Source: a virus
Virus genome (UHGV): UHGV-2170543
Strand: one strand, 5' to 3'
Length of the DNA stretch: 33,672 nucleotides
Made by a program: the position numbers and the translations under genes. Of the stretch, positions 3,181-26,578 are shown in pieces. The notes beneath the pieces were generated by a model. It did not search any database. It worked only from the letters and a program-made list of their open reading frames with translations, and was not told the origin of the DNA. The first letter of the stretch is position 1. The number at the start of each line of letters is the position of its first letter.

Positions 3181-4061
3181 CTAAATACGCACTTTAAGAT
3201 AAGTCAGCCCCGGATGAAGCCAGTAAGCCGGCACTTTTTTAAAGGGTGGAGTATTAAAATCACGAAGAAGAGCCTCCCGCACAATTGCATCCTTATCAGC
3301 ACCACTGGCCAGCGCTTCAATCTCAGCGGCTACCTGAAGATATCCCATGCAACGGCCAACGCGCTTCATCAGCCCCTGCTTTTTATTGTTCTTCAGGTAA
3401 TCAATGGCAAATTCAATGAGCTCCTCACTGTGCTGGTGCGATGGAGGTGTTACTTTCCCATTTTCTGAGATGGTTATTTTCCCAGCATCACCGGATACAA
3501 CAAAGGATGGCCGGTTACACTCCCATTCCAGCTCACTGAAATTATCATTATGAATACTGAAACACTCTGCGAGATTTCTGCTCATCACTTTCCGACAATA
3601 ATCGTCAAACGCAGCAAACTGCTTTTCATCGCCAGAAGGCACCAATATCGACCATTTCTTATTCAGCTCAACGACGTAGCTCTCCAGTTTTTCAATACGT
3701 GATTCAACATCATCTTTTTCTGACCGCAGTGTTGACGGCGGCATCTTCAGAGAACAAGTAATTCTTCCCGGTAGCTTTCCTTTGTAGGTTATCAACACAT
3801 CCTGCGCCTCTAAAATTACGGGGCGCTTTTCCGNNNNNNNNNNNNNNNNNNNNNNNNNNNNTCCATGAAAAACTGCTTCGCCTGCTTTTTCGCCTCAGCT
3901 TCGTAAAACTCCAGCGTGGCACCTTCAGTACGGTCAAGACTAATCGCCACATTTGGCAACAACAGTGACGGATACCCACCAATTTCCAGTACCACAGTAA
4001 CAGTAATCTTATCCGGGTAATTATTTATCCCTTTAACAACCAGTTCGTATTTTTTCTTCAT
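3181..4061 (-). CDS. hypothetical late protein between S and R with a copy-specific about 180-aa C-terminal extension; interrupted by assembly gap
   Basis: N-terminal MKKKYELVVKGINNY... matches copy B gene 33208-33561; after the gap the frame continues ITYKGKLPGRITCSLKMPPSTLRSEKDD... to 3181, whereas copy B stops at ...SLKTPPESQP; frame across the N-run not verifiable. Confidence 0.4.
3834..3861. other. assembly gap (N run, 28 nt) inside S-R intergenic gene
   Basis: Run of n characters; length does not match copy B (about 38-39 nt expected). Confidence 1.
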
Positions 4062-4956: not shown

Positions 4957-6918
4957 TCATGCCGCGGCATCCGCGTTGTTCACTTCCACCTTCACACTGT
5001 CAATCAGCAGCGTATATGTCGCCGCCTTTGATATGCCTGTCAGTTGCAGTTTGTCCGCCGCCCCTGATGCCGGAGATTTCACCAGTGTGAACGGCGTCCC
5101 CCGTTTCTCATCCAGTACCGGCGTCACCTGAATGCTGTTGTTTCCGGCAAACTCAAAAGCCAGTGTGTGCCATCCGTTATCAAAGACCCCGAACGTATCC
5201 AGCTTCGCATTCGGCTTCTTGTGGTGCATCGCGTTCAGGTTCGTCGCATCCGTCTGCAGGAAGAAGGACATCAGCATGTCGTTGCCTTCCTCTGCCAGCG
5301 TCACTCCCTCCGGCAGGGACGACAACTGCCAGTAAATGCCCAGGGCAAACTGATTCGGCACCAGTGAACCCGGCAACTTAAACCGTACGCTCACACGTCC
5401 TCCTTTCTTCAGCAACTCTGCCCCCTGCCCGGCTGCATCATGCTCCAGAAACCAGATGTGGTTTTCCGGTTTATTCAGTTGCAGGGCCTTACCTCCCGTA
5501 GCCCCCGCATCACTGACCACCGCTTCAGCAATGTTTTTGTTAACATTGTCTCCGCTCGCCGGTTTGTGATAATAGCGCCAGCCCTGTGATGCCAGGTCTT
5601 CGCCGGACGCCAGCAGACTCATCAGGGTTCGGTTACTGACCGGACCTTCCGGCTCTCTCTCCGTACCTTCACCGGAAGGTCCGGTGGGCTTCACCGTATC
5701 AGGCTGTTTTCCGGTAATGAATTCAGCGGTTCTCCCGGCATGCACAAGAATCGCCGTTGCCAGACGGTCGGAAATAATCCCACGACGTGCCCATGATCCA
5801 AAATGCGTTTTACGGTCAGCCGTCGTCCAGGTTTTGGCGTCCGTTCGACCACCGGCTCCGTAATACCCAATATCCGCAACATCCGGATCTTCTGACGGCT
5901 CGTTGGTACCCACATTTCGCCCGTTTTCATCCGTCATAAACGGCACAAAGAAGATTTTTTTTGCGGATTTCGTCTTATATGCACCATACACCGCATCGTA
6001 TTGCGAAGAATAAGTCTGCTTCCAGTAGTAGGTCGTGTCGCCACAAATCCAGGGAACTGATGACGGAGAGCCCCCGAGACACTGACCTCCGAATTCCGAC
6101 AGGTCAGAACGATATTTTTCCACCATGGAATCAAACAGCCCCGGCTGAGTGGCGTATGCACCCTGTTTCAAATCAAACTCGCCCTGCATCCAGACCACTG
6201 CAAGCAGAATATTTTTAGGGTTGGCCTTCAGTGCGGCCTGAGTACGGGTAAGCAGGTCCTTGTACAGTGGCTTATCTACACCCCAGCGTGCCGAGGTCTC
6301 GCTTGCGCCGGTGGATTCGCTGAAGGTACCTTCATCGCCCGCCAAAAATGCAGAACCACCACGGCAGCACGGAACCAGAAGAATACCGGCATTCGCCGGA
6401 ATAAACGGCAACAATTTCTTCGCGATATGTAATCCCTGCCCCACGCATCCATACTGAGCTGCGCTGGCTTTCGGGTGTGAAAACTTACTCAAATCCTGAA
6501 CATCATGCAGGCAGTGGTCCGCAGGAATAATGTCATTGTAGTTACAGGACGCACCACCCGGCGTGACAGTGCTGCGACGCGCCAGCTGTTTAATACGCGG
6601 GTCCGGACGGTCATATGTCTCCGGCAGCGGAAGCCCTTCACCATACGCCATACCGTTTGACTGCCCGGCCAGGGCAACAACAAAGTAATACTCCGGGTTG
6701 CTGGTAGTGCTGATAACTGCGCCTTCTCCATCCGACGGCTTCACCACCACAGGTGTGGTGACATCACCTTCCGCCGCAATGGCCTGCATCAGGGTATAAG
6801 GCGTGATGGCCACCGGACTGCCAAATGGCTGCCACCCCTCCTTCAGTTTTTGTGTCAGTCGTTTCGCAAGGTCTGACGGCGATGCCGCCCTGACCACGTC
6901 ATAGTGTTTAAATGCCAT
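4957..6918 (-). CDS. nanS-p: NanS-p-like 9-O-acetyl-sialate esterase (DUF1737 N-terminus + SASA/SGNH domain), copy A
   Basis: 653 aa; N-terminal MAFKHYDVVRAASPSDLAKRLTQKLKEGWQPFG; GQSN SGNH-hydrolase motif (VVALAGQSNGMAYGEG); located downstream of phage tRNA cluster as in Stx-type phages. Confidence 0.8.
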   Translation of the reverse strand: MAFKHYDVVRAASPSDLAKRLTQKLKEGWQPFGSPVAITPYTLMQAIAAEGDVTTPVVVKPSDGEGAVISTTSNPEYYFVVALAGQSNGMAYGEGLPLPETYDRPDPRIKQLARRSTVTPGGASCNYNDIIPADHCLHDVQDLSKFSHPKASAAQYGCVGQGLHIAKKLLPFIPANAGILLVPCCRGGSAFLAGDEGTFSESTGASETSARWGVDKPLYKDLLTRTQAALKANPKNILLAVVWMQGEFDLKQGAYATQPGLFDSMVEKYRSDLSEFGGQCLGGSPSSVPWICGDTTYYWKQTYSSQYDAVYGAYKTKSAKKIFFVPFMTDENGRNVGTNEPSEDPDVADIGYYGAGGRTDAKTWTTADRKTHFGSWARRGIISDRLATAILVHAGRTAEFITGKQPDTVKPTGPSGEGTEREPEGPVSNRTLMSLLASGEDLASQGWRYYHKPASGDNVNKNIAEAVVSDAGATGGKALQLNKPENHIWFLEHDAAGQGAELLKKGGRVSVRFKLPGSLVPNQFALGIYWQLSSLPEGVTLAEEGNDMLMSFFLQTDATNLNAMHHKKPNAKLDTFGVFDNGWHTLAFEFAGNNSIQVTPVLDEKRGTPFTLVKSPASGAADKLQLTGISKAATYTLLIDSVKVEVNNADAAA

Positions 6919-7371
6919 GAATCCTCCCGGCCGGGATAATATTGTGAGTAAAATAAGGAGCGGGCTGAAGTCCGGAAGTTACAGGACAATGGCAGAAGAG
7001 AGACGACAGCCCGCAATTCGAAAAAGACCGCGCAGTTGCGCAGCCTTATGAATTCTGGTTAAAATCCATTCGATTATAAAAATGTATATCTCATGCTGTT
7101 GCCCGAACCCACTCGGGCTTTTTTTTGCCCACAAGAAAGCCCCTCCGGAGAGGGGCTAAAGCCGCGTATCTGTATCATCATGCACATGATGCCGGGTGCC
7201 TCCCGGTGAGTTCAGTATCAGCACCTGAACCCGCACAGAAAGGATAAGGGTCGGTGACAAAACACCAGTTGCTGATTGCCCCTCCGCACAGGGGGATTCA
7301 CCATGCCAGTTTCTTTTAACAAACTCCCCGCAAAACAGACAACTGTCAACCGTCTGAATTGTGAGACATTT

Positions 7372-7395
7372 AAAAAAAAGCCCGCAAAAGCGAGC
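7372..7395 (-). terminator. hairpin + U-tract terminator downstream of tRNA cluster (copy A)
   Basis: Minus-sense GCTCGC-TTTT-GCGGGC followed by TTTTTTTT. Confidence 0.45.
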
Positions 7396-7410
7396 CGGGA
7401 AAAATAAGTC

Positions 7411-7487
7411 TGGCGCGTTGTACTGGATTCGAACCAGTGACCGATTGCTTAGAAGGCAATTGCTCTGTCCGGCTGAGCTAATAACGC
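7411..7487 (-). tRNA. tRNA-Arg (anticodon UCU), argN/argO-like phage tRNA
   Basis: Cloverleaf read by hand: acceptor GCGTTAT/ACAACGC (one mismatch), anticodon loop CTTCTAA, T-loop TTCGAAT, 3' CCA. Confidence 0.85.
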
Positions 7488-7500
7488 AGGGTACAGATAA

Positions 7501-7577
7501 TGGACCGCCATCGAGGACTCGAACCCCGCGCAACCAGCTTCGAAGGCTGGCGCTCTATCCTGATGAGCTAATGGCGG
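7501..7577 (-). tRNA. tRNA-Arg (anticodon UCG), phage tRNA
   Basis: Acceptor CCGCCAT/ATGGCGG, D-stem GCTC/GAGC, anticodon loop CTTCGAA, T-loop TTCGAGT with A58, 3' CCA. Confidence 0.85.
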
Positions 7578-7584
7578 TATGTGA

Positions 7585-7660
7585 TGGTGGCCCTTGCTGG
7601 ATTTGAACCAGCGACCTGGCGATTATGAATCGCTCGCTCTCACCACTGAGCTAAAGGGCC
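7585..7660 (-). tRNA. tRNA-Ile2 (anticodon CAU, lysidine type), ileZ-like phage tRNA
   Basis: Near-identical to E. coli ileX-type sequence as recalled; acceptor GGCCCTT/AAGGGCC, anticodon loop TTCATAA, T-loop TTCAAAT, CCA. Confidence 0.9.
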
Positions 7661-7688
7661 GAGCCAAAAAATAATAATCAGATGAAAA

Positions 7689-8402
7689 TCAATAATCAAG
7701 CCCTTGCCTGGATACATATCTGTCTGGCGGGAAGCCATAATAGCGGTGAAATACAGAAATAAAGTAGGACCTGCTTGAATAACCGCATTTTTCTGCTATA
7801 GCCTGTCCATATCCATGCCGGGAACATAACATATTTACAGCAACACGCATCCGCTCTTCCAGCAACAAGCGACTGAACATGCCCCCTTCATTTTTCAGTT
7901 TTGTCTTTAACAAACTCTCACTCATATGCAACTGTAGAGCAATCGCACCAAGCGTCCAGCTTGCTGATATATCTGTCTGAATTATCGCCCTGACTTTGGC
8001 ACTTATGCTGGATAAACATCCACTTAAAAACAATGACATCCGTTCATCTGTTTCAAACAGAGACAGGCAGGCCATCATAAGAAACATATCCGTGGCCTCT
8101 CCGGAAAATCCCTGGCTGGTAATTAAAGCCGCAGCCAACGCAGGATTGTTGGGTTCCAGCAACAGGTAAAGCGGAATGTCAGTCAGACGAGTCCTCGTCA
8201 GCTTATGCTGACTTTCCAGATATTGACTTACGACGGATTCGCTTATATCGACAATTTTAACTTTGCCATAATGCATAAGGAAAAGCTCCCTGATGCATTT
8301 GGTGGCCAGAACAACTGAGCCTGGCTTAAGTGACAACGTATCCTTTTCAAGAAAAATATTAATTGGGGAGCAAACCATGATAACTGAACAGACAACAGCC
8401 AT
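7689..8402 (-). CDS. AraC-family transcriptional regulator (prophage-encoded)
   Basis: C-terminal AraC-type double HTH (ISASWTLGAIALQLHMSESLLKTKLK...RHGYGQAIAEKCGYSSRSYFISVFHRYYGFPP); start codon uncertain (8402 or 8378). Confidence 0.7.
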   Translation of the reverse strand: MAVVCSVIMVCSPINIFLEKDTLSLKPGSVVLATKCIRELFLMHYGKVKIVDISESVVSQYLESQHKLTRTRLTDIPLYLLLEPNNPALAAALITSQGFSGEATDMFLMMACLSLFETDERMSLFLSGCLSSISAKVRAIIQTDISASWTLGAIALQLHMSESLLKTKLKNEGGMFSRLLLEERMRVAVNMLCSRHGYGQAIAEKCGYSSRSYFISVFHRYYGFPPDRYVSRQGLDY

Positions 8403-8524
8403 TATAATTTTACTTTCATTAGCAATTGGTTAGCTCAATTATAGCCCCAAAAGGTAAATTATCATCAACACATAAGCAAAGGACTGACAGGTGTCGCCCC
8501 CCCACCAGCCGCCCATTCACCACA

Positions 8525-8550
8525 AATAAAAAGCCTTCAGGACTGAAGGC
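8525..8550 (-). terminator. hairpin + U-tract terminator overlapping stop of small gene
   Basis: Minus-sense GCCTTCA-GTCC-TGAAGGC followed by TTTTTATTT. Confidence 0.4.
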
Positions 8551-16932: not shown

Positions 16933-17558
16933 GCGTTAGTTTCTCCACAACCAGAAGCAATCGACGCCACGACGCCCGGAGCTGCACACTCGCGGGCGTT
17001 ACTCTTTTCCGGCGCACAAAAAACACGAAATAACAGTGTTAAATGCTCCTGCCACTTCGCCATTACTTGGTAGCTGTTCTCTTCGATTTGCTCACGCTCA
17101 GCCTGGTCAATAACTCCATCAGCAGTTGCCTTGCGTAAGTACTGGGAATGCTTGCCAATCCATTCTATTGACTCCATCAGCCGCTGATTAATGTCACCAT
17201 TGTCAATGTCATCAATGACCACCAGCGGCACAAACACCCCATTACTACGACGGGCTATTGCATCCGTTACATGCCTGGTACCACTGGCATCCTGTAAAAC
17301 CATGGCCCACTCAAGTGGAAAAATTTGATCCCCACCGCTACGCAGTCTGTTATGCAATTGATCTTTTGCTGGGGTGATATCATCAGATTTATACAAACCA
17401 AGAATTTCTGCTGCTTCCTCATAGCCATGAGGTAAATCAGCAATCGTTCTTCGTATTGCTGCCACCAGCCATGCTGGTTGCTTATCAACTTTCCATTCAG
17501 GTTCTTTACCCACGTTTAAGCCCTCATATCTGTGGTTTCTGTAAATCGATTTATCCAT
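16929..17558 (-). CDS. hypothetical early protein in cII position (YdaT-like?)
   Basis: About 209 aa from MDKSIYRNH...; directly follows cro; family uncertain. Confidence 0.5.
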
Positions 17559-17751
17559 TAGATTTTTCATAAAGCTCAGGTTTAAATGGCAACCGTCCGC
17601 AAGTTCTATATGCAGCCTCTGCTGCACGTCCTTTTGGAATTAACTGGCCAGGACGGTTTCGCCACTGATAAACGGCTTCAGTTGTTATGCCGAAAAAAGC
17701 AGCAACTTTCTCAATGCTGCCGAAGTAGCTTTCGATATCGTCAGTCGTCAT
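17551..17751 (-). CDS. cro: Cro-like HTH regulator
   Basis: 66 aa; FGSIEKVAAFFGITTEAVYQWRNR HTH; divergent from CI-like repressor. Confidence 0.7.
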   Translation of the reverse strand: MTTDDIESYFGSIEKVAAFFGITTEAVYQWRNRPGQLIPKGRAAEAAYRTCGRLPFKPELYEKSNG

Positions 17752-17848
17752 ATGCCCTCCAAACTAAGTTTTATTAGATGTTAATTATCAATCTATCTTA
17801 GGTCAATAAAAACTAAGATTACTTAGTAATTAAAGAAATGGTGCTCCT
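17752..17848. promoter_or_regulatory. immunity-region operator/promoter interval (OR/PR/PRM)
   Basis: Inverted half-sites ACTAAG-ATTA-CTTAGT at 17811-17826, further CTAAG/CTTAG copies at 17763 and 17796; minus-strand PR candidate -35 TTGACC (17805-17800), 17-bp spacer, -10 TAACAT (17782-17777). Confidence 0.5.
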
Positions 17849-18475
17849 ATGGAAACGGTTGGTCAGCGTATAAAAGCTCTGAGAAGAGTTACCAGAACGT
17901 CCCAGAAAGAATTGGGTAAATTTTGTGGAGTAAGTGACGTTGCTGTGGGGTACTGGGAGAAAGACATCAATGTCCCTGGTGGGGAAGCACTTTCAAAATT
18001 AGCGAAGTTCTTCAATACGTCAATAGATTACATTCTTTATGGTGCGGAGTTTGAAGGCAAACTCGTCACAAACATGCGCAGAGTTCCTGTAATCTCGTGG
18101 GTTCAGGCTGGGCAGTTTACTGAGTGCAGGACAGCAGAAGTGTTTAGTGAAGTAGACAAGTGGGTAGATACATCATTAAAGATTGGTGATAACTCATTTG
18201 CATTGGAGGTTAAAGGCGACTCCATGACTAACCCTAACGGCCTCCCAACAATACCAGAAGGCGCAACAGTGATTGTAGATCCTGATGCAGAACCCCGGCA
18301 TGGAAAAATAGTCATCGCTAGACTTGATGGAACAAACGAAGCCACAGTAAAAAAATTAGTTATCGATGGCCCTCAAAAGTTTTTAGTGCCATTAAATCCC
18401 CGGTACCCCAACATCCCGATCAATGGTAATTGCCTCATCATTGGTGTAGTCAAAGGAGTTCAATACGAACTCTAG
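17849..18475 (+). CDS. cI: CI-like repressor (XRE-type HTH + S24 LexA-like peptidase domain)
   Basis: N-terminal HTH SQKELGKFCGVSDVAVGYWEKD; C-terminal GDSM serine and KKL lysine of the S24 Ser/Lys dyad. Confidence 0.85.
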   Translation: METVGQRIKALRRVTRTSQKELGKFCGVSDVAVGYWEKDINVPGGEALSKLAKFFNTSIDYILYGAEFEGKLVTNMRRVPVISWVQAGQFTECRTAEVFSEVDKWVDTSLKIGDNSFALEVKGDSMTNPNGLPTIPEGATVIVDPDAEPRHGKIVIARLDGTNEATVKKLVIDGPQKFLVPLNPRYPNIPINGNCLIIGVVKGVQYEL

Positions 18476-18641
18476 CCCCCCCTTTTCTCTAACCAAAACA
18501 CCGAACTAAGAAAAGTTTGGTGTTTTCTCTTGCCATTAAAACTAAGTTAAGTTAGATTTTATATCAAAGATAACGAACAGGCAGGACGCCCACGAAGTAG
18601 CCGCCTGGGGCATATGAAGTCCAGGATGATTCGTTAGTACC

Positions 18642-18668
18642 AAAAAAGCGCCCTACCGGACGCTTCGC
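18642..18668 (-). terminator. candidate terminator downstream of 2-TM gene
   Basis: Minus-sense AAGCGTCC-GGTA-GGGCGCTT (one mismatch) followed by TTTTTT. Confidence 0.35.
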
Positions 18669-18831
18669 TCTTTAAAAATCAGTAACCCTCACTTTGGGCC
18701 TGGATCTGGTGGCCTGGGACGAGGTGGAATATGAAAAGGCTCTATTGGTCGACTCATTATCCAATCCTATTATGTCTCATTTCTTCGGTTTCGGTGGTTT
18801 CGGCTTCGGAGGTACATGTCCGTGAACTGGA

Positions 18832-19326
18832 TTATGCTTGTTGGTCATCATTAATATCCGTTAGTTCATTCTCTAGAGGTAGATCTCCCGCACACCAAGC
18901 TATAAATTTTTCTTTGGTTGTTAAATCGTACTTAGTTGGAACACCAGCAAAAATACAGGCCCGAATGAAAGCCGCTCGTTCAAGTGATTTCCATGGATTA
19001 CTATCAGTATCTTGGATTTTTAAATACCTAGCTTGCAACTGATCTTCAGGAAGGGTATCAGACTCAATCAGCAGTCTTTTGTAATGCCTCGCTTGCTCTT
19101 TAGACATTCCAGCCTCTTGGCCAAACTGATAGACCAACTGAAGAACCGAAAGTACGGCAACAAACAAACCGAAAATAAATAAATTACTGTACGGGGCGAA
19201 AACTGAAAAACCGAGAACGATTAACATCAACGTTATTAATTTATCAATGCGAGTTAACAACGTGTAATTCATCTTCTCCAATACATAAGAGTAGTGAACA
19301 TAAAATTTATAATCGTCTCTGGTCAT
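18832..19326 (-). CDS. 2-TM membrane protein in the rex-like slot adjacent to cI
   Basis: 164 aa; two hydrophobic helices (LITLMLIVLGFSVFAPY, LFIFGLFVAVLSVLQLVY) then charged cytoplasmic domain; AT-rich; convergent with cI. Confidence 0.55.
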   Translation of the reverse strand: MTRDDYKFYVHYSYVLEKMNYTLLTRIDKLITLMLIVLGFSVFAPYSNLFIFGLFVAVLSVLQLVYQFGQEAGMSKEQARHYKRLLIESDTLPEDQLQARYLKIQDTDSNPWKSLERAAFIRACIFAGVPTKYDLTTKEKFIAWCAGDLPLENELTDINDDQQA

Positions 19327-19711
19327 ATTAGTCTCAGTTTTCCTTGGGTGGTTTTGGAGGAACTGGAGGCTTTTGTCTTAACGGCACATGCCTCTCCTCA
19401 TACTTATCTACACATAGATCCATATAAATCCTTATCGTTGTTGGGGAGGGTTACATAATAACCAAATCCTTGTTGTTGGGGAATAACCAGGTCCACCTCG
19501 CCTGATGTGGCTAAAAGCAGGCACATAACAGCTAAGTATTTTCAACCAGAGAGAATCCTTAGCGTTGTGGTGAATGCGCAGGCTGATGCGCGAAAGACAT
19601 TGCAGCTATTGCGGAAAAGAGCTGTTCGGCGGGGCAATTAAACGCCCGTGAGAGTCTGAAATAACCGCAAGCCGGAGATCAGCACCGGTCACCACAACAG
19701 CCACTGCTTTG

Positions 19712-19757
19712 GCGGTACCAGTTTGTACCCTTGCTTCCGGCTGGTACCGCTCTTTTT
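19712..19757 (+). terminator. strong hairpin terminator in leader of yfdP-like operon
   Basis: Perfect 10-bp stem GCGGTACCAG/CTGGTACCGC with 19-nt loop followed by TCTTTTT. Confidence 0.5.
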
Positions 19758-19894
19758 ACAAAACAGAGAAGAGCATCACCGGACGACGGGCTCATAACCC
19801 AATCCATCCGGGCGGCTGTCACCGCAGGTGTTCTTCTCTGTTTTGTGGAGAAACCAACCGACCTTGCAGGGTCGGTATGATGAGGAGCAGCAAA

Positions 19895-20257
19895 ATGGCT
19901 AGCGTACGCAGTACTGATGTGCAGGTATTTATCGTAGAACTGGACGGCGGCGTATTTGAAACCAAACTCGGCGCAGTTCTCAGTGAAGTCGCTTCCGGTG
20001 TGATGAACACGAAAAACAAAGGTAAAGTCTCGGTCAATCTGGACATCGAACCGTTTGATGAGAACCGTGTGAAAATCAAACACAAACTCTCATATGTTCG
20101 CCCGACTAACCGCGGGAAAATCTCCGAAGAAGACACCACCGAAACGCCGATGTATGTCAATCGAGGTGGTCGCCTGACTATTCTGCAGGAAGACCAGGGA
20201 CAATTACTGACTCTTGCCGGTGAACCTGACGGAAAACTCCGCGCAGCAGGTCGTTAA
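19895..20257 (+). CDS. YfdP-like hypothetical protein
   Basis: 120 aa from MASVRSTDVQVF with GAGGAG RBS; first gene of a block resembling CPS-53 yfdPQRST by order and lengths. Confidence 0.45.
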   Translation: MASVRSTDVQVFIVELDGGVFETKLGAVLSEVASGVMNTKNKGKVSVNLDIEPFDENRVKIKHKLSYVRPTNRGKISEEDTTETPMYVNRGGRLTILQEDQGQLLTLAGEPDGKLRAAGR

Positions 20258-20322
20258 TATCGTTCGTAATAAACTGATTATTTATCTCATCACTGAATAT
20301 CTTTATATAGTGAGGACTTATT

Positions 20323-21147
20323 ATGTCTCAGAACTTAGACGCAACCGCAATTAATCAAATCCATGCCCTTATTTCTGCTCAGGGTGTTAATGAAATTATC
20401 AGTAAGATTGGTGCCGATGCTGTGGCATTGCCTGAGAATTTCCGCATTCATGATCTGGAAAAATTTAATTTAAATCGCTTCCGTTTCCGTGGTGCACTTT
20501 CCACTGCCAGCATCGATGATTTTACCCGTTATTCTAAAGATCTTGCAGATGAAGGCACCCGCTGCTTTATCGATGCCGATAATATGCGTGCCGTCAGTGT
20601 GCTTAACCTGGGTACTATTGATGAGCCAGGTCACGCAGATAACACTGCCACTCTCAAACTGAAAAAGACAGCACCGTTCTCTGCTCTGTTGTCTGTTAAC
20701 GGCGAGCGTAACTCCCAGAAGTCACTGGCAGAATGGATCGAAGACTGGGCCGACTACCTTGTGGGCTTTGATGCTAATGGTGACGCTATTCAGGCAACAA
20801 AAGCGGCTGCGGCAGTCCGTAAAATCACGATTGAAGCAAACCAGACCGCTGATTTTGAAGATAATGACTTCAGCGGCAAACGCTCCCTGATGGAGTCTGT
20901 CGAAGCGAAGACCAAAGACATTATGCCAGTGGCATTTGAATTTAAATGCGTTCCGTTTGAAGGTCTGAAAGAACGTCCGTTTAAATTACGCCTCAGCATT
21001 ATCACTGGCGATCGTCCTGTACTGGTTCTGCGCATTATTCAGCTGGAAGCGGTGCAGGAAGAAATGGCTAACGAATTTCGTGATCTGCTTGTTGAGAAAT
21101 TCAAAGACAGCAAAGTAGAAACCTTTATTGGTACTTTCACCGCCTGA
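20323..21147 (+). CDS. YfdQ-like protein (DUF2303 family)
   Basis: 274 aa; length and position match yfdQ of CPS-53-type prophages as recalled. Confidence 0.6.
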
Positions 21148-21274
21148 TTTCATTACTGCAAATGCCCCTGCGGGGGCATTTATGGAAACGTAATTAACTC
21201 AATAATCACCGGATGGTGAGGGCTTCCTTTTACCAGAATTCAGCGCGGTGCAGTGCATATACGTGGAGAACAAA

Positions 21275-21811
21275 ATGTCATTTATTAAAACTTTTTCCGG
21301 GAAGCATTTTTATTATGACAAGATAAATAAAGACGACATCGATATTAACGATATCGCGGTTTCCCTTTCAAATATCTGTCGCTTTGCCGGTCATCTTTCG
21401 CACTTCTACAGCGTCGCCCAACATGCGGTTCTTTGCAGCCAGCTGGTGCCGCAGGAATTTGCTTTTGAAGCGTTAATGCATGATGCAACAGAAGCGTATT
21501 GCCAGGACATTCCCGCACCACTGAAACGCCTTCTTCCTGACTATAAACGGATGGAAGAAAAAATAGACGCCGTAATCCGTGAGAAATACGGGTTACCCCC
21601 AGTTATGAGTACACCCGTGAAATATGCCGATCTCATCATGCTGGCAACCGAACGCCGCGATCTCGGGCTTGATGATGGCTCTTTCTGGCCTGTACTGGAA
21701 GGCATCCCGGCAACAGAGATGTTCAACGTGATTCCACTGGCACCGGGTCATGCCTACGGGATGTTTATGGAACGTTTTAACGATTTATCGGAGTTACGCA
21801 AATGCGCATGA
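21275..21811 (+). CDS. HD-domain phosphohydrolase (YfdR-like)
   Basis: H...HD metal-binding motif (HLSHFYSVAQHAV ... EALMHDATEAY); start MSFIKTF with GGAGAA RBS. Confidence 0.6.
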   Translation: MSFIKTFSGKHFYYDKINKDDIDINDIAVSLSNICRFAGHLSHFYSVAQHAVLCSQLVPQEFAFEALMHDATEAYCQDIPAPLKRLLPDYKRMEEKIDAVIREKYGLPPVMSTPVKYADLIMLATERRDLGLDDGSFWPVLEGIPATEMFNVIPLAPGHAYGMFMERFNDLSELRKCA

Positions 21812-22164
21812 ATGTTTTCGAAATGGAAGGGTTTCTTCGCGGGAAATGTGTACCGCGAGATCTGAAAGTGAATGAAACAAATGCTGAGTACCTGTTACGT
21901 AAATTCGACGCGCTTGAAGCTAAATGTGCGGCACTGGAAAACAAAATAATACCAGTGTCAGCTGAACTGCCACCAGCAAATGAAAGTGTTCTGTTATTTG
22001 ATGCTAACGGAGAAGGCTGGCTAATTGGCTGGCGTTCTCTCTGGTACACCTGGGGACAAAAAGAAACCGGAGAATGGCTGTGGACATTTCAGGTCGGGGA
22101 CCTTGAAAACGTCAATATCACTCACTGGGCAGTAATGCCGAAAGCACCGAAGAATAAAAAATGA
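21802..22164 (+). CDS. YfdS-like hypothetical protein
   Basis: 120 aa, overlaps upstream stop; Trp-rich C-terminus. Confidence 0.45.
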   Translation: MRMNVFEMEGFLRGKCVPRDLKVNETNAEYLLRKFDALEAKCAALENKIIPVSAELPPANESVLLFDANGEGWLIGWRSLWYTWGQKETGEWLWTFQVGDLENVNITHWAVMPKAPKNKK

Positions 22165-22364
22165 GCGTGATAAAAACTCATACAGGAATTGTTATCACCC
22201 GAGACGGTCCGCAGGTAAAAAAACTGCACCAGACAAAGCGGATGTGGGTCGTCGGAAAAAACGAGTTTTACCACAAAGAAACCGGACGCCGCCACTTTGC
22301 AGAAAATACTCGCCGCCGACTGCTGATCGATACCATCAAGCCTATCGAGGTGAAGCATGTTTAA
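22161..22364 (+). CDS. small hypothetical protein
   Basis: 67 aa; ATGA-type overlap with upstream gene. Confidence 0.35.
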   Translation: MSVIKTHTGIVITRDGPQVKKLHQTKRMWVVGKNEFYHKETGRRHFAENTRRRLLIDTIKPIEVKHV

Positions 22365-22596
22365 ACAGAACGAAAAATCTATCGCTCAAATTGCTGAGTA
22401 TATCCCGCGTGCGTGCCGGGATATGCAGTTGCAGGAAGCCAAAGCACGCCTGGAGAAAAAAATTGCGCTCTATATCGATGACGGCTGTGATGCCGCCGTT
22501 CTTAACGCGGCGTTCGCGCCAGCTCTTAACAGTCATACGCGAAAGTCTTTTTTTTCGTGCATCGCAGCGCAGATCCGTAAAGGAGGCAACCAGTGA
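22357..22596 (+). CDS. small hypothetical protein
   Basis: 79 aa; operon-style overlap. Confidence 0.35.
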   Translation: MFKQNEKSIAQIAEYIPRACRDMQLQEAKARLEKKIALYIDDGCDAAVLNAAFAPALNSHTRKSFFSCIAAQIRKGGNQ

Positions 22597-23216
22597 GCAA
22601 CATTAACTATCAGGTACTGCGTGAAAAGGCAGAGAAAGCAACTAAAGGAAGCTACATCGTAGGGCATACATCTGTTAACCAACACGGCAATTTAACAGGA
22701 GTTTTTGTTTGTCAAAAATGGAAAGGAGAACCCGGTGGCGTGATTGCGGAACGTCATGTTAACTGCCTGATTGAAACAGATGCTCAGGCTTATGCAAACG
22801 CTGAGTTCATAGCAGAGGCTAACCCGGCTACCGTGCTGGCACTGCTGGATGAACAGGAAAGAAACCAGCAATACATCAAACGCCGCGACCAGGAGAACGA
22901 GGATATTGCGCTAACGGTAGGGAAGCTGCGCGTTGAGCTTGAGGAGACAAAATCAAAACTCAACGAGCAGCGCGAGTATTATGAGGGAGTTATCTCTGAT
23001 GGGTGCAAGCGTATTGCTGAACTGGAAGCGCGGGAAGTTCAATTACCGACTCGCTACGACCTTCGATATGGACACCCGATAAATGCAGATGAGCGACATG
23101 TCATGATACCTAAAGAAAATGGCAGTTGGCTTTACCTGATTGACCTGGAACACGCATTACGCGTCGCTGGCATTCGCATCAAAGGAGAGGAGCATGGAAA
23201 TAAAACCAGAGGATGA
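22593..23216 (+). CDS. Ea22-like family protein
   Basis: 207 aa; coiled-coil central region; resembles ead/Ea22-like prophage proteins as recalled. Confidence 0.45.
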   Translation: MSNINYQVLREKAEKATKGSYIVGHTSVNQHGNLTGVFVCQKWKGEPGGVIAERHVNCLIETDAQAYANAEFIAEANPATVLALLDEQERNQQYIKRRDQENEDIALTVGKLRVELEETKSKLNEQREYYEGVISDGCKRIAELEAREVQLPTRYDLRYGHPINADERHVMIPKENGSWLYLIDLEHALRVAGIRIKGEEHGNKTRG

Positions 23217-24656: not shown

Positions 24657-24914
24657 ATACAGCGAACGCCATTGGTTTAGTTGGATATTTACTGTGCCGG
24701 ACAAAAACGGTTTGCGGGGAAATCTTAGTTAAGTAGAATGACTGCGGGTGCTTGAGGCTATCTGTCTCAGGCATGAACACCAAAAGGCAGATAGAGAAAA
24801 GCCCCAGTTAACATTACGCGTCCTGCAAGACGCTTAACATTAATCTGAGGCCATATCTATGCGACACATAGAGATTAGCCTCTTACGGACCGAAAGGTCA
24901 AGGAGAAGCAGGCT

Positions 24915-25070
24915 ATGAAGCAGCAAAAGGCGATGTTAATCGCCCTGATCGTCATCTGTTTAACCGTCATAGTGACGGCACTGGTAACGAGGAAAGACCT
25001 CTGCGAGGTACGAATCCGAACCGGCCAGACGGAGGTCGCTGTCTTCACAGCTTACGAACCTGAGGAGTAA
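24915..25070 (+). CDS. hok: Hok/Gef-family type I toxin
   Basis: MKQQKAMLIALIVICLTVIVTALVTRKDLCEVRIRTGQTEVAVFTAYEPEE closely matches the Hok pattern (LTRKSLCEIRYRDG.REVAAF.AYE); short upstream ORF ends in ATGA overlap; palindrome CTATGCGACACATAG upstream. Confidence 0.75.
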   Translation: MKQQKAMLIALIVICLTVIVTALVTRKDLCEVRIRTGQTEVAVFTAYEPEE

Positions 25071-25237: not shown

Positions 25238-25510
25238 ATGGCGCACAAAACCAAATTTCACAATTCTGATACCGACCTTGCCATCCGGCATGGGCGGCGT
25301 TCACACGCATTTAAAACCGACTGGTACCAACACCCACCATGTACTGAAGAACAGGCCGAATGGCTAATTCATAACTACCGCAGACGCGGATACGAGATTA
25401 AGAAAGCCCTCAGCCTCGATTATCGTCACTGGATAATCTATGTCAGGCTCCCTTATTCCGAACGCTCACCGCGCCCATCCCGCACATTCCAGCAACGCAT
25501 CTGGAGGTAA
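25238..25510 (+). CDS. hypothetical protein
   Basis: 90 aa ORF preceding DUF968 gene. Confidence 0.35.
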   Translation: MAHKTKFHNSDTDLAIRHGRRSHAFKTDWYQHPPCTEEQAEWLIHNYRRRGYEIKKALSLDYRHWIIYVRLPYSERSPRPSRTFQQRIWR

Positions 25511-25511
25511 C

Positions 25512-26566
25512 GTGCGGATATTACTTCGACCTGTTCTGGTACCGGAACTCGGGCTGGTGGTCCTTAGGCCGGGCCGTGAATCCATGCAAGTATTTCATAA
25601 CCCTCGAGTGCTGGTGGAGCCTGAACCGAAAAGCATGCGCGGTCTGCCGTCCGGAGTCGTCCCTGCCGTTCGCCAGCCGCTGGCGGAGGATAAATCATTT
25701 CTGCCATTTTTCAGCGATGAGCGGGTGATTCGTGCTGCTGGCGGCGCTGGGGCACTGTCTGACTGGCTGTTGCGTCATGCCAAATCCTGCCAGTGGCCTC
25801 ATGGTGACTATCATCACAGTGAAATCGTCATACATCGTTACGGTACCGGCGCGATGGTGTTGTGCTGGCACTGCGACAACCAGTTGCGTGACCAGACATC
25901 CGAATCACTCGGGCAACTTGCTCATCAAAACCTGTCAGCATGGATGATTGACGTCATACGCCATGCAATGAATGGCACGCAGGAGCGGGAATTGTCGCTG
26001 GCTGAATTATCCTGGTGGGCGGTCCGCAATCAGGTGGCGGACGCGCTACCGGAAGTGGTATTACGTCGTTCGCTGGGGTTGCGTGCGGAAAAAATCCGCT
26101 CAATGTACCGTGAAAGCGACATCGTACCGGGAGNNNNNNNNNNNNNNNNNNNNNNNNNNNNNNNNNNNNNNNNNNNNNNNNNNNNNNNNNNNNNNNNNNN
26201 NNNNNNNNNNNNNNNNNNCCACAGGAAGAGACGGTGGTCAGCATTGCCGTTGATCCTGAGTCTCCGGAATCTTTCATGAAACGACCTAAACGTCGCCGCT
26301 GGGTTAACGAGAAATACAAACGCTGGGTGAAGACACAGCCGTGTGCGTGTTGTGGTAAGCCAGCCGACGATCCCCATCACCTGATTGGTCATGGTCAGGG
26401 CGGAATGGGGACAAAATCTCACGATATTTTCACGCTACCGCTGTGTCGGGAGCATCACAACGAGCTTCATGCGGATCCTCTGGCGTTCGAAGAAAAGCAT
26501 GGTTCTCAGGTTGATTTAATTTTTCGTTTTCTTGATCACGCCTTTGCAACTGGCGTGCTTGGGTAA
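25512..26566 (+). CDS. DUF968-family nin-region protein, copy B (spans assembly gap)
   Basis: GTG start after GGAGG RBS; N- and C-terminal parts paralogous to 10095-11090; interrupted by N run 26134-26218. Confidence 0.55.
26134..26218. other. assembly gap (N run, 85 nt) inside DUF968 gene
   Basis: Run of n characters. Confidence 1.
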
Positions 26567-26578
26567 AAGAGGTGACTG

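What the first reader, a model, noticed from the sequence alone, without database searches (positions are those of the whole stretch)
4957..6918. Two divergent NanS-p esterase paralogs and no stx between tRNAs and nanS-p
Both late modules encode a DUF1737 + SGNH esterase of the NanS-p type (653 and 617 aa) with near-identical N-termini but diverged C-terminal halves, suggesting different substrate-binding domains. In Stx phages the toxin genes lie between the tRNA cluster and this gene; here the interval is non-coding in both copies, so these are stx-negative late regions of the same architecture.
Basis: partly seen in the sequence, partly recalled or inferred. Interest (0 to 1): 0.4.

Follow-up and report, generated by a model that had tools for sequence, protein, structure and literature searches.

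The report
Two ordinary prophage NanS-p esterase genes
The window holds two well-known, widespread variants of the prophage sialic-acid O-acetylesterase NanS-p. Each sits in a toxin-free copy of the late-gene layout used by Shiga-toxin phages, and the "empty" toxin slot carries known small-RNA genes, so the finding is correct but ordinary.

Summary
ORFs 4957-6918(-) (653 aa) and 30987-32840(+) (617 aa) are both DUF1737 + SASA/SGNH + DUF6645 proteins. Each lies downstream of an ileZ-argN-argO-type tRNA trio.

- **Divergence:** it covers the whole protein, not just the C-terminal half. DUF1737 is 100% identical (9 differences, all synonymous), the esterase core 70%, and the lectin-like C-terminal domain 40%.
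- **No sequencing error:** both proteins are identical to RefSeq entries and occur on hundreds of independent contigs. The SGNH catalytic blocks are intact.
- **Toxin slot:** against phage 933W, both copies lack exactly the 1335-bp stx2AB cassette, with the same junction and no remnant.
- **The intervals are not empty:** they have no protein genes, but carry STnc100 sRNA genes (one copy; two plus a degenerate one), an AsxR-like antisense sRNA in copy 1, and many terminators.
- **Already published:** multiple nanS-p alleles in non-Stx prophages, domain-wise diversity, the C-terminal lectin fold (6YP6) and a capsid-decoration role for DUF1737.

Mildly new points: the 653-aa allele has no close relative (at most 65%) among 50,697 phage records. 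The two late regions are joined in one composite not seen in 5,426 complete E. coli genomes.

The parts
4957..6918 (-). nanS-p copy 1 (653 aa). Domains: DUF1737 1-53, linker, SASA/SGNH core about 77-395, DUF6645 lectin-like C-terminal domain about 441-653.
   Evidence: ORF; Pfam. PDB 3PT5 at E 1e-118 and 6YP6 at E 4e-61. Identical to WP_001530582.1. GQSN, CCRGGS, MQGE and RKTH blocks present.
30987..32840 (+). nanS-p copy 2 (617 aa). Same three domains, with a 14-aa shorter DUF1737-SASA linker and a shorter start of the C-terminal domain.
   Evidence: ORF; Pfam. PDB 3PT5 at E 2e-122 and 6YP6 at E 4e-30. Identical to WP_000874518.1. 90% identical to the NanS-p of Stx2 phage 86. Block IV reads RPTH.
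7411..7660 (-). tRNA trio upstream of copy 1: tRNA(CAT) (Ile2/Met), tRNA-Arg(TCG), tRNA-Arg(TCT). Equivalent to ileZ-argN-argO of 933W.
   Evidence: ARAGORN; Rfam. 93.5% identical to the 933W tRNA block. 933W annotation.
29762..30011 (+). tRNA trio upstream of copy 2, same three tRNAs.
   Evidence: 92% identical to the 933W block.
7379..7396 (-). Intrinsic terminator after argO. The empty stx slot follows at 7369-7372.
   Evidence: Terminator scan. Alignment breakpoints against 933W.
30026..30043 (+). Intrinsic terminator after argO. The empty stx slot follows at 30050-30053.
   Evidence: Terminator scan. Alignment breakpoints against 933W.
7127..7335 (-). STnc100-family sRNA gene (overlaps EcOnc27/sRNA103; PasD-related). 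In 933W the same element lies just downstream of stxB.
   Evidence: Rfam RF02076 at 131.7 bits against a gathering score of 47. 933W homologue at L005 3278-3483. Literature: PMC12711010 and 10.64898/2026.05.13.724894.
7071..7123 (+). AsxR/AgvB-like antisense sRNA gene with its own terminator at 7101-7118.
   Evidence: Rfam RF02703 at 63.0 bits, equal to the gathering score; AgvB at 43.4 bits, below threshold. Terminator. 933W AsxR in the same position at 88 bits.
30087..30277 (+). STnc100-family sRNA gene, first copy in interval 2.
   Evidence: Rfam at 136.3 bits.
30316..30489 (+). Degenerate STnc100-like module, below threshold, with a terminator at 30460-30483.
   Evidence: Rfam at 30.1 bits, E 6e-4, below the gathering score. 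Terminator.
30555..30764 (+). STnc100-family sRNA gene, second copy in interval 2. About 70% identical to the first copy, with a repeat period of about 470 bp.
   Evidence: Rfam at 165.4 bits. Self-BLAST.
6824..7043 (-). Conserved block: 125-nt leader (begins with hairpin CTGCGCAACTGCGCGG + T-run) plus the first 95 nt of nanS-p. 93-98% identical among copy 1, copy 2 and 933W, except 89-91% to 933W over the coding 95 nt.
   Evidence: Alignment A1. Identities.
30862..31081 (+). The same conserved leader plus 5' coding block in copy 2. The terminator-like hairpin is at 30862-30877.
32913..33206 (+). P21-type class II holin downstream of copy 2, marking the start of the lysis cassette.
   Evidence: Pfam PF04971. 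Annotation of the homologous locus.

Best explanation
These are two alleles of nanS-p, the prophage-borne sialate O-acetylesterase. They were brought in by two different lambda-like prophage late regions, not produced by duplication in place.

**Position.** Each gene sits in the standard slot: Q antiterminator, accessory genes, ileZ-argN-argO tRNAs, terminator, a cargo ('moron') slot, STnc100 sRNA, then nanS-p and the holin/lysis genes. In Stx phages the cargo slot holds stxAB. Here it is empty in both copies, with an identical junction.

**Expression and activity (inferred).** The genes are expected to be transcribed with the late operon after Q-dependent read-through of the many terminators. 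The enzyme is expected to remove 9-O-acetyl groups from sialic acids such as Neu5,9Ac2 and mucin O-glycans, using the intact SGNH catalytic blocks. This is inferred from characterised homologues.

**C-terminal domain.** The lectin-like jelly-roll domain probably targets glycans. It differs between the copies (40% identity) but keeps the same aromatic residues at the proposed sugar site.

**N-terminal domain (inferred).** By homology to phi24B gp84, DUF1737 is probably a capsid-hexon anchor that displays the enzyme on virions.
- It is identical in both copies.
- Its synonymous divergence (dS 0.28) is far below the saturated value (above 2) for the rest of the gene.
- So each gene is a domain mosaic with a recently shared 5' block.
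- This fits the near-identical lambda-type capsid proteins seen in relatives of both prophages.
For: - **Domains and structures:** Pfam; PDB 3PT5 and 6YP6.
- **Catalytic blocks and site residues:**
- **Divergence per domain:** identity and dN/dS. DUF1737 has 9 synonymous and 0 non-synonymous changes, dS 0.28. SASA has dS about 2.1 and dN 0.23. The C-terminal domain has dN 0.61.
- **Not errors:** exact identity to RefSeq proteins; 513 and at least 1000 contigs carry the exact sequences.
- **Independent origin:** each allele sits in its own prophage at separate loci of one strain, 23CRST038.
- **Empty slot:** 933W layout and precise junction; no stx remnant.
- **sRNAs and terminators:**
- **Capsids:** lambda-type heads with the major capsid protein 339/342 identical in the two relatives.
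- **Literature:** esterase activity of seven EDL933 and five O104:H4 NanS-p enzymes, and the lectin-like domain (PMC8065619); domain-wise diversity, presence in non-Stx prophages and mitomycin induction (PMC10462455); DUF1737 as capsid decoration anchor (10.64898/2026.04.10.717836).
Against: - No activity, expression or virion data exist for these two alleles.
- The capsid-decoration role was shown only for a T=9 podovirus (phi24B), whereas relatives of both prophages have lambda-type heads.
- The DUF1737 allele here has a 3-residue shorter anchor loop than phi24B/933W.
- This allele also occurs with an unrelated HK97-fusion head type, so adaptation to one capsid type is not demonstrated.
- F611, one of the four proposed sugar-site aromatic residues, is absent in both copies.
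- The structural genes of the window's own prophages lie outside the window.
Confidence: 0.87

Rival explanations
1. The two genes are true paralogs made by duplication within this genome, followed by divergence of the C-terminal half.
For: They share identical first 53 residues and a 93-98% identical leader. They lie 24 kb apart in one window.
Against: - Beyond codon 53, nucleotide identity is only 50-70% and dS is saturated above 2.
- Each allele occurs alone, in its own prophage at different chromosomal sites, in many genomes.
- Copy 2 is 90% identical to the phage 86 allele, while copy 1's best phage match is 65%.
Confidence: 0.03
2. These late regions are former Stx phages that lost the toxin cassette by precise deletion, rather than backbones that never carried stx.
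For: The junction coincides exactly with the cassette boundaries in 933W in both copies. Downstream sRNAs known from Stx2 phages (STnc100, AsxR-like) are retained. A short ATCTG motif flanks the cassette in 933W.
Against: - No stx remnant is present.
- The same empty junction occurs in two otherwise diverged regions.
- Homologous regions occur in 3,202 and 3,359 of 5,426 complete E. coli genomes. From general knowledge, not tested here, most E. coli lack stx.
- In other prophages the slot carries different cargo, such as iraM and DUF3927. This fits a general cargo slot that is empty here.
Confidence: 0.1
3. NanS-p acts only as a metabolic enzyme for the lysogen, released on lysis to feed on O-acetylated sialic acids, and has no virion role in these lambda-type prophages. 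On this view DUF1737 is conserved for another reason or by recent recombination alone.
For: Growth-advantage and esterase data exist for homologues (PMC8065619). Virion display was shown only in phi24B (10.64898/2026.04.10.717836). The window-type DUF1737 occurs with two unrelated head types. Its low dS (0.28) shows recent shared ancestry, which alone explains much of the identity.
Against: All 9 nucleotide differences in DUF1737 are synonymous. The variable half of DUF1737 among alleles contains the position of the capsid-contacting Tyr42 loop of phi24B. The 933W-type and VT1-type alleles each co-occurred only with their own head type, 3/3 and 2/2.
Confidence: 0.35
4. The placement of two divergent late regions in one 33.7-kb window is an assembly chimera, collapsed at a shared 588-bp Ea22-like repeat. 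On this view the two genes are not physically linked.
For: - Window 1-23189 matches a prophage at mlrA, and 24727 to the end matches a different prophage's nin-to-late region.
- The two matches overlap only in 22602-23189.
- No complete E. coli genome contains the whole arrangement.
- Ten contigs examined around the junction gene were all ordinary single prophages.
- In strain 23CRST038 the two regions are about 1 Mb apart.
Against: Homologous recombination between prophages at such repeats is common and could give a real composite. No read-level data are available, so this cannot be decided here. It does not affect what the two genes are.
Confidence: 0.3

Closest known systems
NanS-p of Stx2a phage 933W (L0105 / z1466) and phi24B gp84 (vb_24B_21; C-terminal domain structure 6YP6)
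   Same: Same three-domain architecture. Same position between the tRNAs/STnc100 and the holin. Same SGNH blocks. The 125-nt leader is 93-95% identical and the first 95 coding nt 89-91% identical.
   Different: - stx2AB lies upstream in 933W and is absent here.
- The SASA core is only 71-72% identical, and the C-terminal domain 58% (copy 1) or 37% (copy 2).
- The second half of DUF1737, including the Tyr42 anchor loop, is a different allele and 3 residues shorter.
- 933W and phi24B are podoviruses with a different capsid protein.
NanS-p of Stx2-converting phage 86 (NC_008464; 'sequence 20' of Pascal et al. 2023) and of some Stx1a phages
   Same: Copy 2 is 90% identical over its full length to the phage 86 protein, and 85-86% to Stx1a-phage alleles. 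It shares the unusual RPTH block IV (PMC10462455).
   Different: Those phages carry stx and this region does not. Copy 1 has no comparable relative: its best match among 50,697 phage records is 64.8%.
Multiple NanS-p genes of non-Stx prophages in E. coli O157:H7 EDL933 (seven) and O104:H4 (five)
   Same: Several divergent nanS-p alleles per genome, mostly in stx-negative lambdoid prophages, all shown to be active esterases (PMC8065619, PMC10462455).
   Different: Identity of the present alleles to those characterised enzymes was not determined here.
Chromosomal NanS (YjhS), 9-O-acetyl-N-acetylneuraminate esterase, PDB 3PT5
   Same: The catalytic core is homologous over about 320 residues (E 1e-118 and 2e-122), with the same block motifs.
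   Different: NanS lacks the DUF1737 N-terminal and lectin-like C-terminal domains and is not prophage-borne.
STnc100 (RF02076; overlaps EcOnc27/sRNA103; related to PasD) and AsxR (RF02703), sRNAs of Stx-phage late regions
   Same: Same position immediately upstream of nanS-p, with scores well above threshold for STnc100. PasD2 and the esterase are reported as neighbours in EPEC (10.64898/2026.05.13.724894).
   Different: Here they occur without stx. Interval 2 has two full copies plus one degenerate copy and no detectable AsxR. The copy 1 AsxR hit is only at threshold.

Membership tests
NanS-p (prophage sialate O-acetylesterase) | N-terminal DUF1737 domain | tested here: met
   PF08410 at E 9e-16 and 1e-15 for residues 3-50 of both proteins.
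NanS-p (prophage sialate O-acetylesterase) | SASA/SGNH catalytic core homologous to NanS, with the four block motifs (GQSN Ser, CCRGGS, MQGE, RxxH His) | tested here: met
   PF03629. 3PT5 at E 1e-118 and 2e-122. Motifs at 85/184/244/369 in copy 1 and 71/172/232/356 in copy 2.
NanS-p (prophage sialate O-acetylesterase) | C-terminal lectin-like jelly-roll domain (DUF6645; 6YP6) with aromatic sugar-site residues Y510, Y515, Y540, F611 | tested here: inconclusive
   The domain is present in both (PF20350 at E 2e-43 and 2e-19; 6YP6 at E 4e-61 and 4e-30). The site residues read F, Y, F and a deletion in both copies, so 3 of 4 are conservatively kept. No structure was predicted.
NanS-p (prophage sialate O-acetylesterase) | Location in a lambdoid late region between Q/tRNAs and the holin | tested here: met
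   Q genes at 9706-10092(-) and 26929-27624(+), and a holin at 32913-33206. tRNAs. Annotations of homologous loci.
NanS-p (prophage sialate O-acetylesterase) | Esterase activity on Neu5,9Ac2 or O-acetylated mucin glycans | not testable with these tools
   Only shown for homologues in the literature (PMC8065619).
Capsid-decorating esterase (phi24B gp84 type) | DUF1737 hexamer bound at hexon centres of the virion; autoproteolytic processing | not testable with these tools
   Shown for phi24B only (10.64898/2026.04.10.717836). Here the anchor-loop half of DUF1737 is a different allele. Heads of related prophages are lambda-type.
Stx-converting phage late region | stxA-stxB operon between argO and STnc100/nanS-p | tested here: not met
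   The 1335-bp cassette (933W L005 1910-3244) is absent, replaced by 4 bp in both copies. No tblastn or blastn remnant.
Stx-converting phage late region | ileZ-argN-argO tRNA cluster, terminator and downstream sRNAs in the same order | tested here: met
   92-93.5% identity to the 933W tRNA block. STnc100 is in the same relative position.
STnc100 sRNA (Rfam RF02076) | Covariance-model score above the gathering threshold of 47 bits | tested here: met
   131.7, 136.3 and 165.4 bits for full-length matches. A fourth element at 30.1 bits does not qualify.
AsxR sRNA (Rfam RF02703) | Score above the gathering threshold of 63 bits | tested here: inconclusive
   Copy 1 scores 63.0 bits, exactly at threshold, and also matches AgvB at 43.4 bits, below its threshold of 56. 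Copy 2 has no hit, only an antisense terminator at 30772-30793.

The most novel reading that the evidence does not exclude
The allele-specific second half of DUF1737, which contains the position of the Tyr42 capsid-contact loop of phi24B, may be a capsid-type-specific anchor.

On this reading, the allele shared by both copies here marks display of exchangeable esterase and lectin modules on siphovirus capsids (lambda-type and HK97-fusion-type). NanS-p would then be a general plug-in capsid-displayed glycan esterase. The 653-aa allele is absent from sequenced phages and its best matches include strain S88; it would be an uncharacterised specificity variant.

The evidence is only suggestive.
- Three DUF1737 allele classes were seen.
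- Two of them co-occurred strictly with one head type, 3/3 and 2/2.
- The window-type allele occurred with two head types.
- dN is 0 against dS 0.28 between the two copies.
Probability: 0.15. Interest if true: 0.45.

Novelty: already known. Interest (0 to 1): 0.15.

Why it matters
It matters little beyond correct annotation.
- **Not remnants of toxin phages:** both regions are ordinary stx-negative lambdoid late regions with an intact cargo slot, which in principle could receive stx by recombination with an Stx phage.
- **Annotation:** the 'non-coding' spacers should be annotated as sRNA loci (STnc100, AsxR-like).
- **Small leads:** an uncharacterised NanS-p lineage (the 653-aa allele); evidence that nanS-p evolves by exchange at domain boundaries; a possible link between DUF1737 allele and capsid type, relevant to the recent capsid-decoration report.

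Tried and rejected
- **Sequencing error or pseudogene:** rejected. Both proteins are identical to RefSeq entries and recur in hundreds of contigs.
- **In-place duplication:** rejected on saturated dS and separate genomic homes.
- **Hidden stx remnants or other ORFs in the intervals:** none. tblastn hits have E of at least 0.35 and lie elsewhere in the window. blastn of the cassette gave nothing. The longest stop-to-stop frames (84-91 aa) overlap the sRNA genes.
- **STnc100 as the late promoter/leader (pR'):** not supported. 933W annotates pR' and qut directly after Q, and STnc100 lies downstream of stxB.
- **One-to-one link between DUF1737 allele and capsid type:** tested on 11 loci and only partly upheld, because the window-type allele occurs with two head types. 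Linkage is also a confounder.
- **Search for the composite arrangement elsewhere:** The look-up of encoding contigs on the junction gene returned only ordinary single prophages. No complete genome covers it.
- **Defence-system scan of the accessory genes between Q and the tRNAs:** only the kinase matched, as PD-T4-6-like.
- **Not run:** structure prediction of the C-terminal domains, because sequence matches to 6YP6 were already decisive and no deep alignment was available. Large protein database searches, judged unnecessary.
Full report
**Observation**

The window contains ORF 4957-6918(-) of 653 aa and ORF 30987-32840(+) of 617 aa. Each lies downstream of a trio of tRNA genes with anticodons CAT, TCG and TCT, at 7411-7660(-) and 29762-30011(+). 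Both proteins match Pfam DUF1737 (residues 3-50), SASA and DUF6645. BLASTP gives 57% identity overall, with the first 53 residues identical.

**How the two proteins differ**

A three-way alignment with 933W NanS-p, scored per domain, gives these values for copy 1 against copy 2:

| Region | aa identity | Other measures |
|---|---|---|
| DUF1737 (1-53) | 100% | 94.3% nt; 9 differences, all synonymous; dS 0.28, dN 0 |
| Linker | not scored | 14-aa indel; copy 2 is shorter |
| SASA/NanS core | 70% | dS about 2.1 (saturated), dN 0.23 |
| C-terminal domain | 40% | dN 0.61 |

So divergence covers everything after residue 53, not only the C-terminal half. The gene is a mosaic: a recently shared 5' block is joined to anciently diverged catalytic and lectin modules.

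The shared block extends upstream. The 125-nt leader is 93-95% identical among copy 1, copy 2 and 933W. The first 95 coding nucleotides are 89-98% identical. After that, identity to 933W falls to 45-49%.

**Are they functional, or errors?**

- Both proteins are 100% identical to RefSeq proteins WP_001530582.1 and WP_000874518.1.
- The exact sequences occur on 513 and at least 1000 contigs.
- The 4-kb regions around them are found, at 80% coverage or more, in 55 and 227 complete E. coli genomes.
- The SGNH block motifs GQSN, CCRGGS, MQGE and RxxH are intact in both. Block IV reads RKTH in copy 1 and RPTH in copy 2.
- The cores match the solved NanS structure 3PT5 at E 1e-118 and 2e-122. The C-terminal domains match the solved NanS-p lectin-like domain 6YP6 at E 4e-61 and 4e-30.
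- At the four aromatic positions proposed as the sugar site (Y510, Y515, Y540, F611; PMC10462455), both copies read F, Y, F and a deletion.

The two C-terminal domains therefore share one fold family and one set of residues at those four positions, while differing elsewhere. 'Different substrate-binding domains' remains possible but is not demonstrated.

**The tRNA-to-nanS-p intervals**

In 933W the order is Q, pR', tRNAs ileZ-argN-argO, terminator, stxA2, stxB2, a 486-bp spacer, then nanS-p. Rfam places STnc100, and AsxR on the opposite strand, in that spacer.

In both window copies the tRNA + terminator block aligns to 933W up to locus position 1909, at 92-93.5% identity. The alignment resumes at position 3245, only 4 bp later in the window. 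Exactly the 1335-bp stx cassette is therefore missing, with the same junction in both copies. There is no stx remnant by tblastn or blastn, and no credible ORF.

The intervals are not empty, however.
- Interval 1 has one STnc100 (7127-7335, 131.7 bits) and an AsxR-like antisense element (7071-7123, 63.0 bits, at threshold).
- Interval 2 has two STnc100 copies (30087-30277 at 136.3 bits; 30555-30764 at 165.4 bits) plus a degenerate third (30316-30489, 30.1 bits).
- Interval 2 also has 10 terminator-like hairpins where 1.7 are expected.

STnc100 overlaps the Hfq-binding sRNA EcOnc27/sRNA103 (PMC12711010). It is reported to be related to PasD, which neighbours the esterase gene in EPEC (10.64898/2026.05.13.724894).

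**Context**

Window 1-23189 corresponds to a lambdoid prophage integrated next to mlrA. It is 99.9% identical over 7000-23189 to strain 23CRST038. Window 24727 to the end corresponds to the nin-to-late region of a different prophage, as in VR50 and at a second locus of 23CRST038. The two alleles therefore arrive with different prophages.

Relatives of both prophages have lambda-type morphogenesis genes. Their major capsid proteins are 339/342 identical.

**Mechanism**

*Shown for homologues, inferred here:*
- NanS-p enzymes de-O-acetylate Neu5,9Ac2 and mucin glycans and give lysogens a growth advantage (PMC8065619).
- Expression rises with prophage induction, together with stx (PMC10462455).
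- In phi24B the protein is a capsid decoration. A DUF1737 hexamer plugs the hexon centre through a Tyr42 loop, and the rest of the protein is processed off (10.64898/2026.04.10.717836).

*Seen here:*
- The half of DUF1737 that differs between alleles contains the position of that loop.
- Across 11 loci I found three allele classes. The 933W-type occurred only with the 933W capsid protein (3/3). A VT1-Sakai type occurred only with its own head type (2/2). The window-type occurred with lambda-E-like heads and also with an HK97-fusion head.

This is suggestive of capsid-related constraint. It is confounded by linkage and is not a clean association.

**Comparison with known work, and novelty**

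- Copy 2 is 90% identical to the NanS-p of Stx2 phage 86, and 85-86% to Stx1a-phage alleles.
- Copy 1 has no relative above 64.8% among 50,697 phage records, although it is common in E. coli genomes.
- Several published facts cover the finding. EDL933 carries seven and O104:H4 five nanS-p alleles. The genes occur in non-Stx prophages. All three domains vary. The C-terminal domain is a lectin-like module (PMC8065619, PMC10462455).

The finding is therefore correct but already known.

**Side observation**

The two late regions point outwards from a single composite. The pL arm of prophage A runs into a B-type nin region through a shared 588-bp Ea22-like segment (22602-23189). No complete E. coli genome has this arrangement, and a contig look-up found only ordinary prophages. 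It is either a rare recombinant or an assembly chimera, and I could not decide between the two.

**Verdict**

Novelty: already known. Interest is low (0.15).

Noticed in passing
window 22602-23189 (junction); whole window: The window is a composite. Prophage A (late genes leftward, immunity region, pL arm) is joined through a shared 588-bp Ea22-like segment to the nin-Q-late region of a different prophage running rightward. There is no integrase between them. No complete E. coli genome (5,426) contains the arrangement. It is either a rare recombinant or an assembly chimera.
   Followed up: partly
window 27696-29275 (+): A Ser/Thr protein kinase and a PP2C phosphatase lie between Q and the tRNAs of the second late region. 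The kinase matches PADLOC mads_6 at E 2e-40 and several PD-T4-6 anti-phage kinase models at up to E 2e-34. This is probably a prophage-borne defence or regulatory pair.
   Followed up: partly
window 7689-8402 (-) and 9013-9657 (-): Accessory genes lie between Q (9706-10092) and the tRNAs of the first late region. One is an AraC-type HTH protein. The other is a 214-aa protein that RefSeq calls WYL-domain-containing but that had no Pfam or PADLOC hit here.
   Followed up: partly
window 15479-15667 (-) and 16345-16530 (-): Two tandem Rha-family regulator genes are each accompanied by a C4 antisense RNA (81 and 75 bits) and an isrK RNA (62 bits). This is a duplicated P1/P7-type antirepressor control module.
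   Followed up: no
window 24746-24917 (+): A sok antitoxin RNA (107 bits) with hokD lies at the start of the second prophage segment.
   Followed up: no
window 29386-29712 (+): A truncated N6/N4 DNA methyltransferase (C-terminal fragment only) lies just upstream of the second tRNA trio. It is annotated as a pseudogene in related genomes.
   Followed up: no
window 6824-7043 (-) and 30862-31081 (+): A 125-nt leader is 93-95% identical among copy 1, copy 2 and 933W, and the first 95 nt of nanS-p are 89-98% identical. Both flanks are much more diverged. The block starts with a terminator-like hairpin (CTGCGCAACTGCGCGG + T-run). It could be a recombination linker or a regulatory 5' UTR.
   Followed up: partly
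L008 (NZ_CP015159.1) locus 25312-27415; also L018-L026: In a common related prophage, the slot between the tRNAs and nanS-p carries other cargo (DUF3927, iraM/PmrD-like). There nanS-p is truncated to a DUF1737-only ORF of about 62 aa. The slot is thus a general cargo site, and the capsid-anchor domain can persist alone.
   Followed up: no
window 7585-7660 (-) and 29762-29837 (+): The tRNA with anticodon CAT is called Met by ARAGORN. It is annotated as Ile (ileZ, AUA-reading after lysidine modification) in 933W and in some RefSeq genomes, and as Met in others. Public annotation is inconsistent.
   Followed up: no
L005 (933W) 1905-1915 and 3236-3246: A short ATCTG motif occurs at both edges of the stx2AB cassette relative to the empty site in the window. 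A 5-bp repeat may be chance.
   Followed up: no
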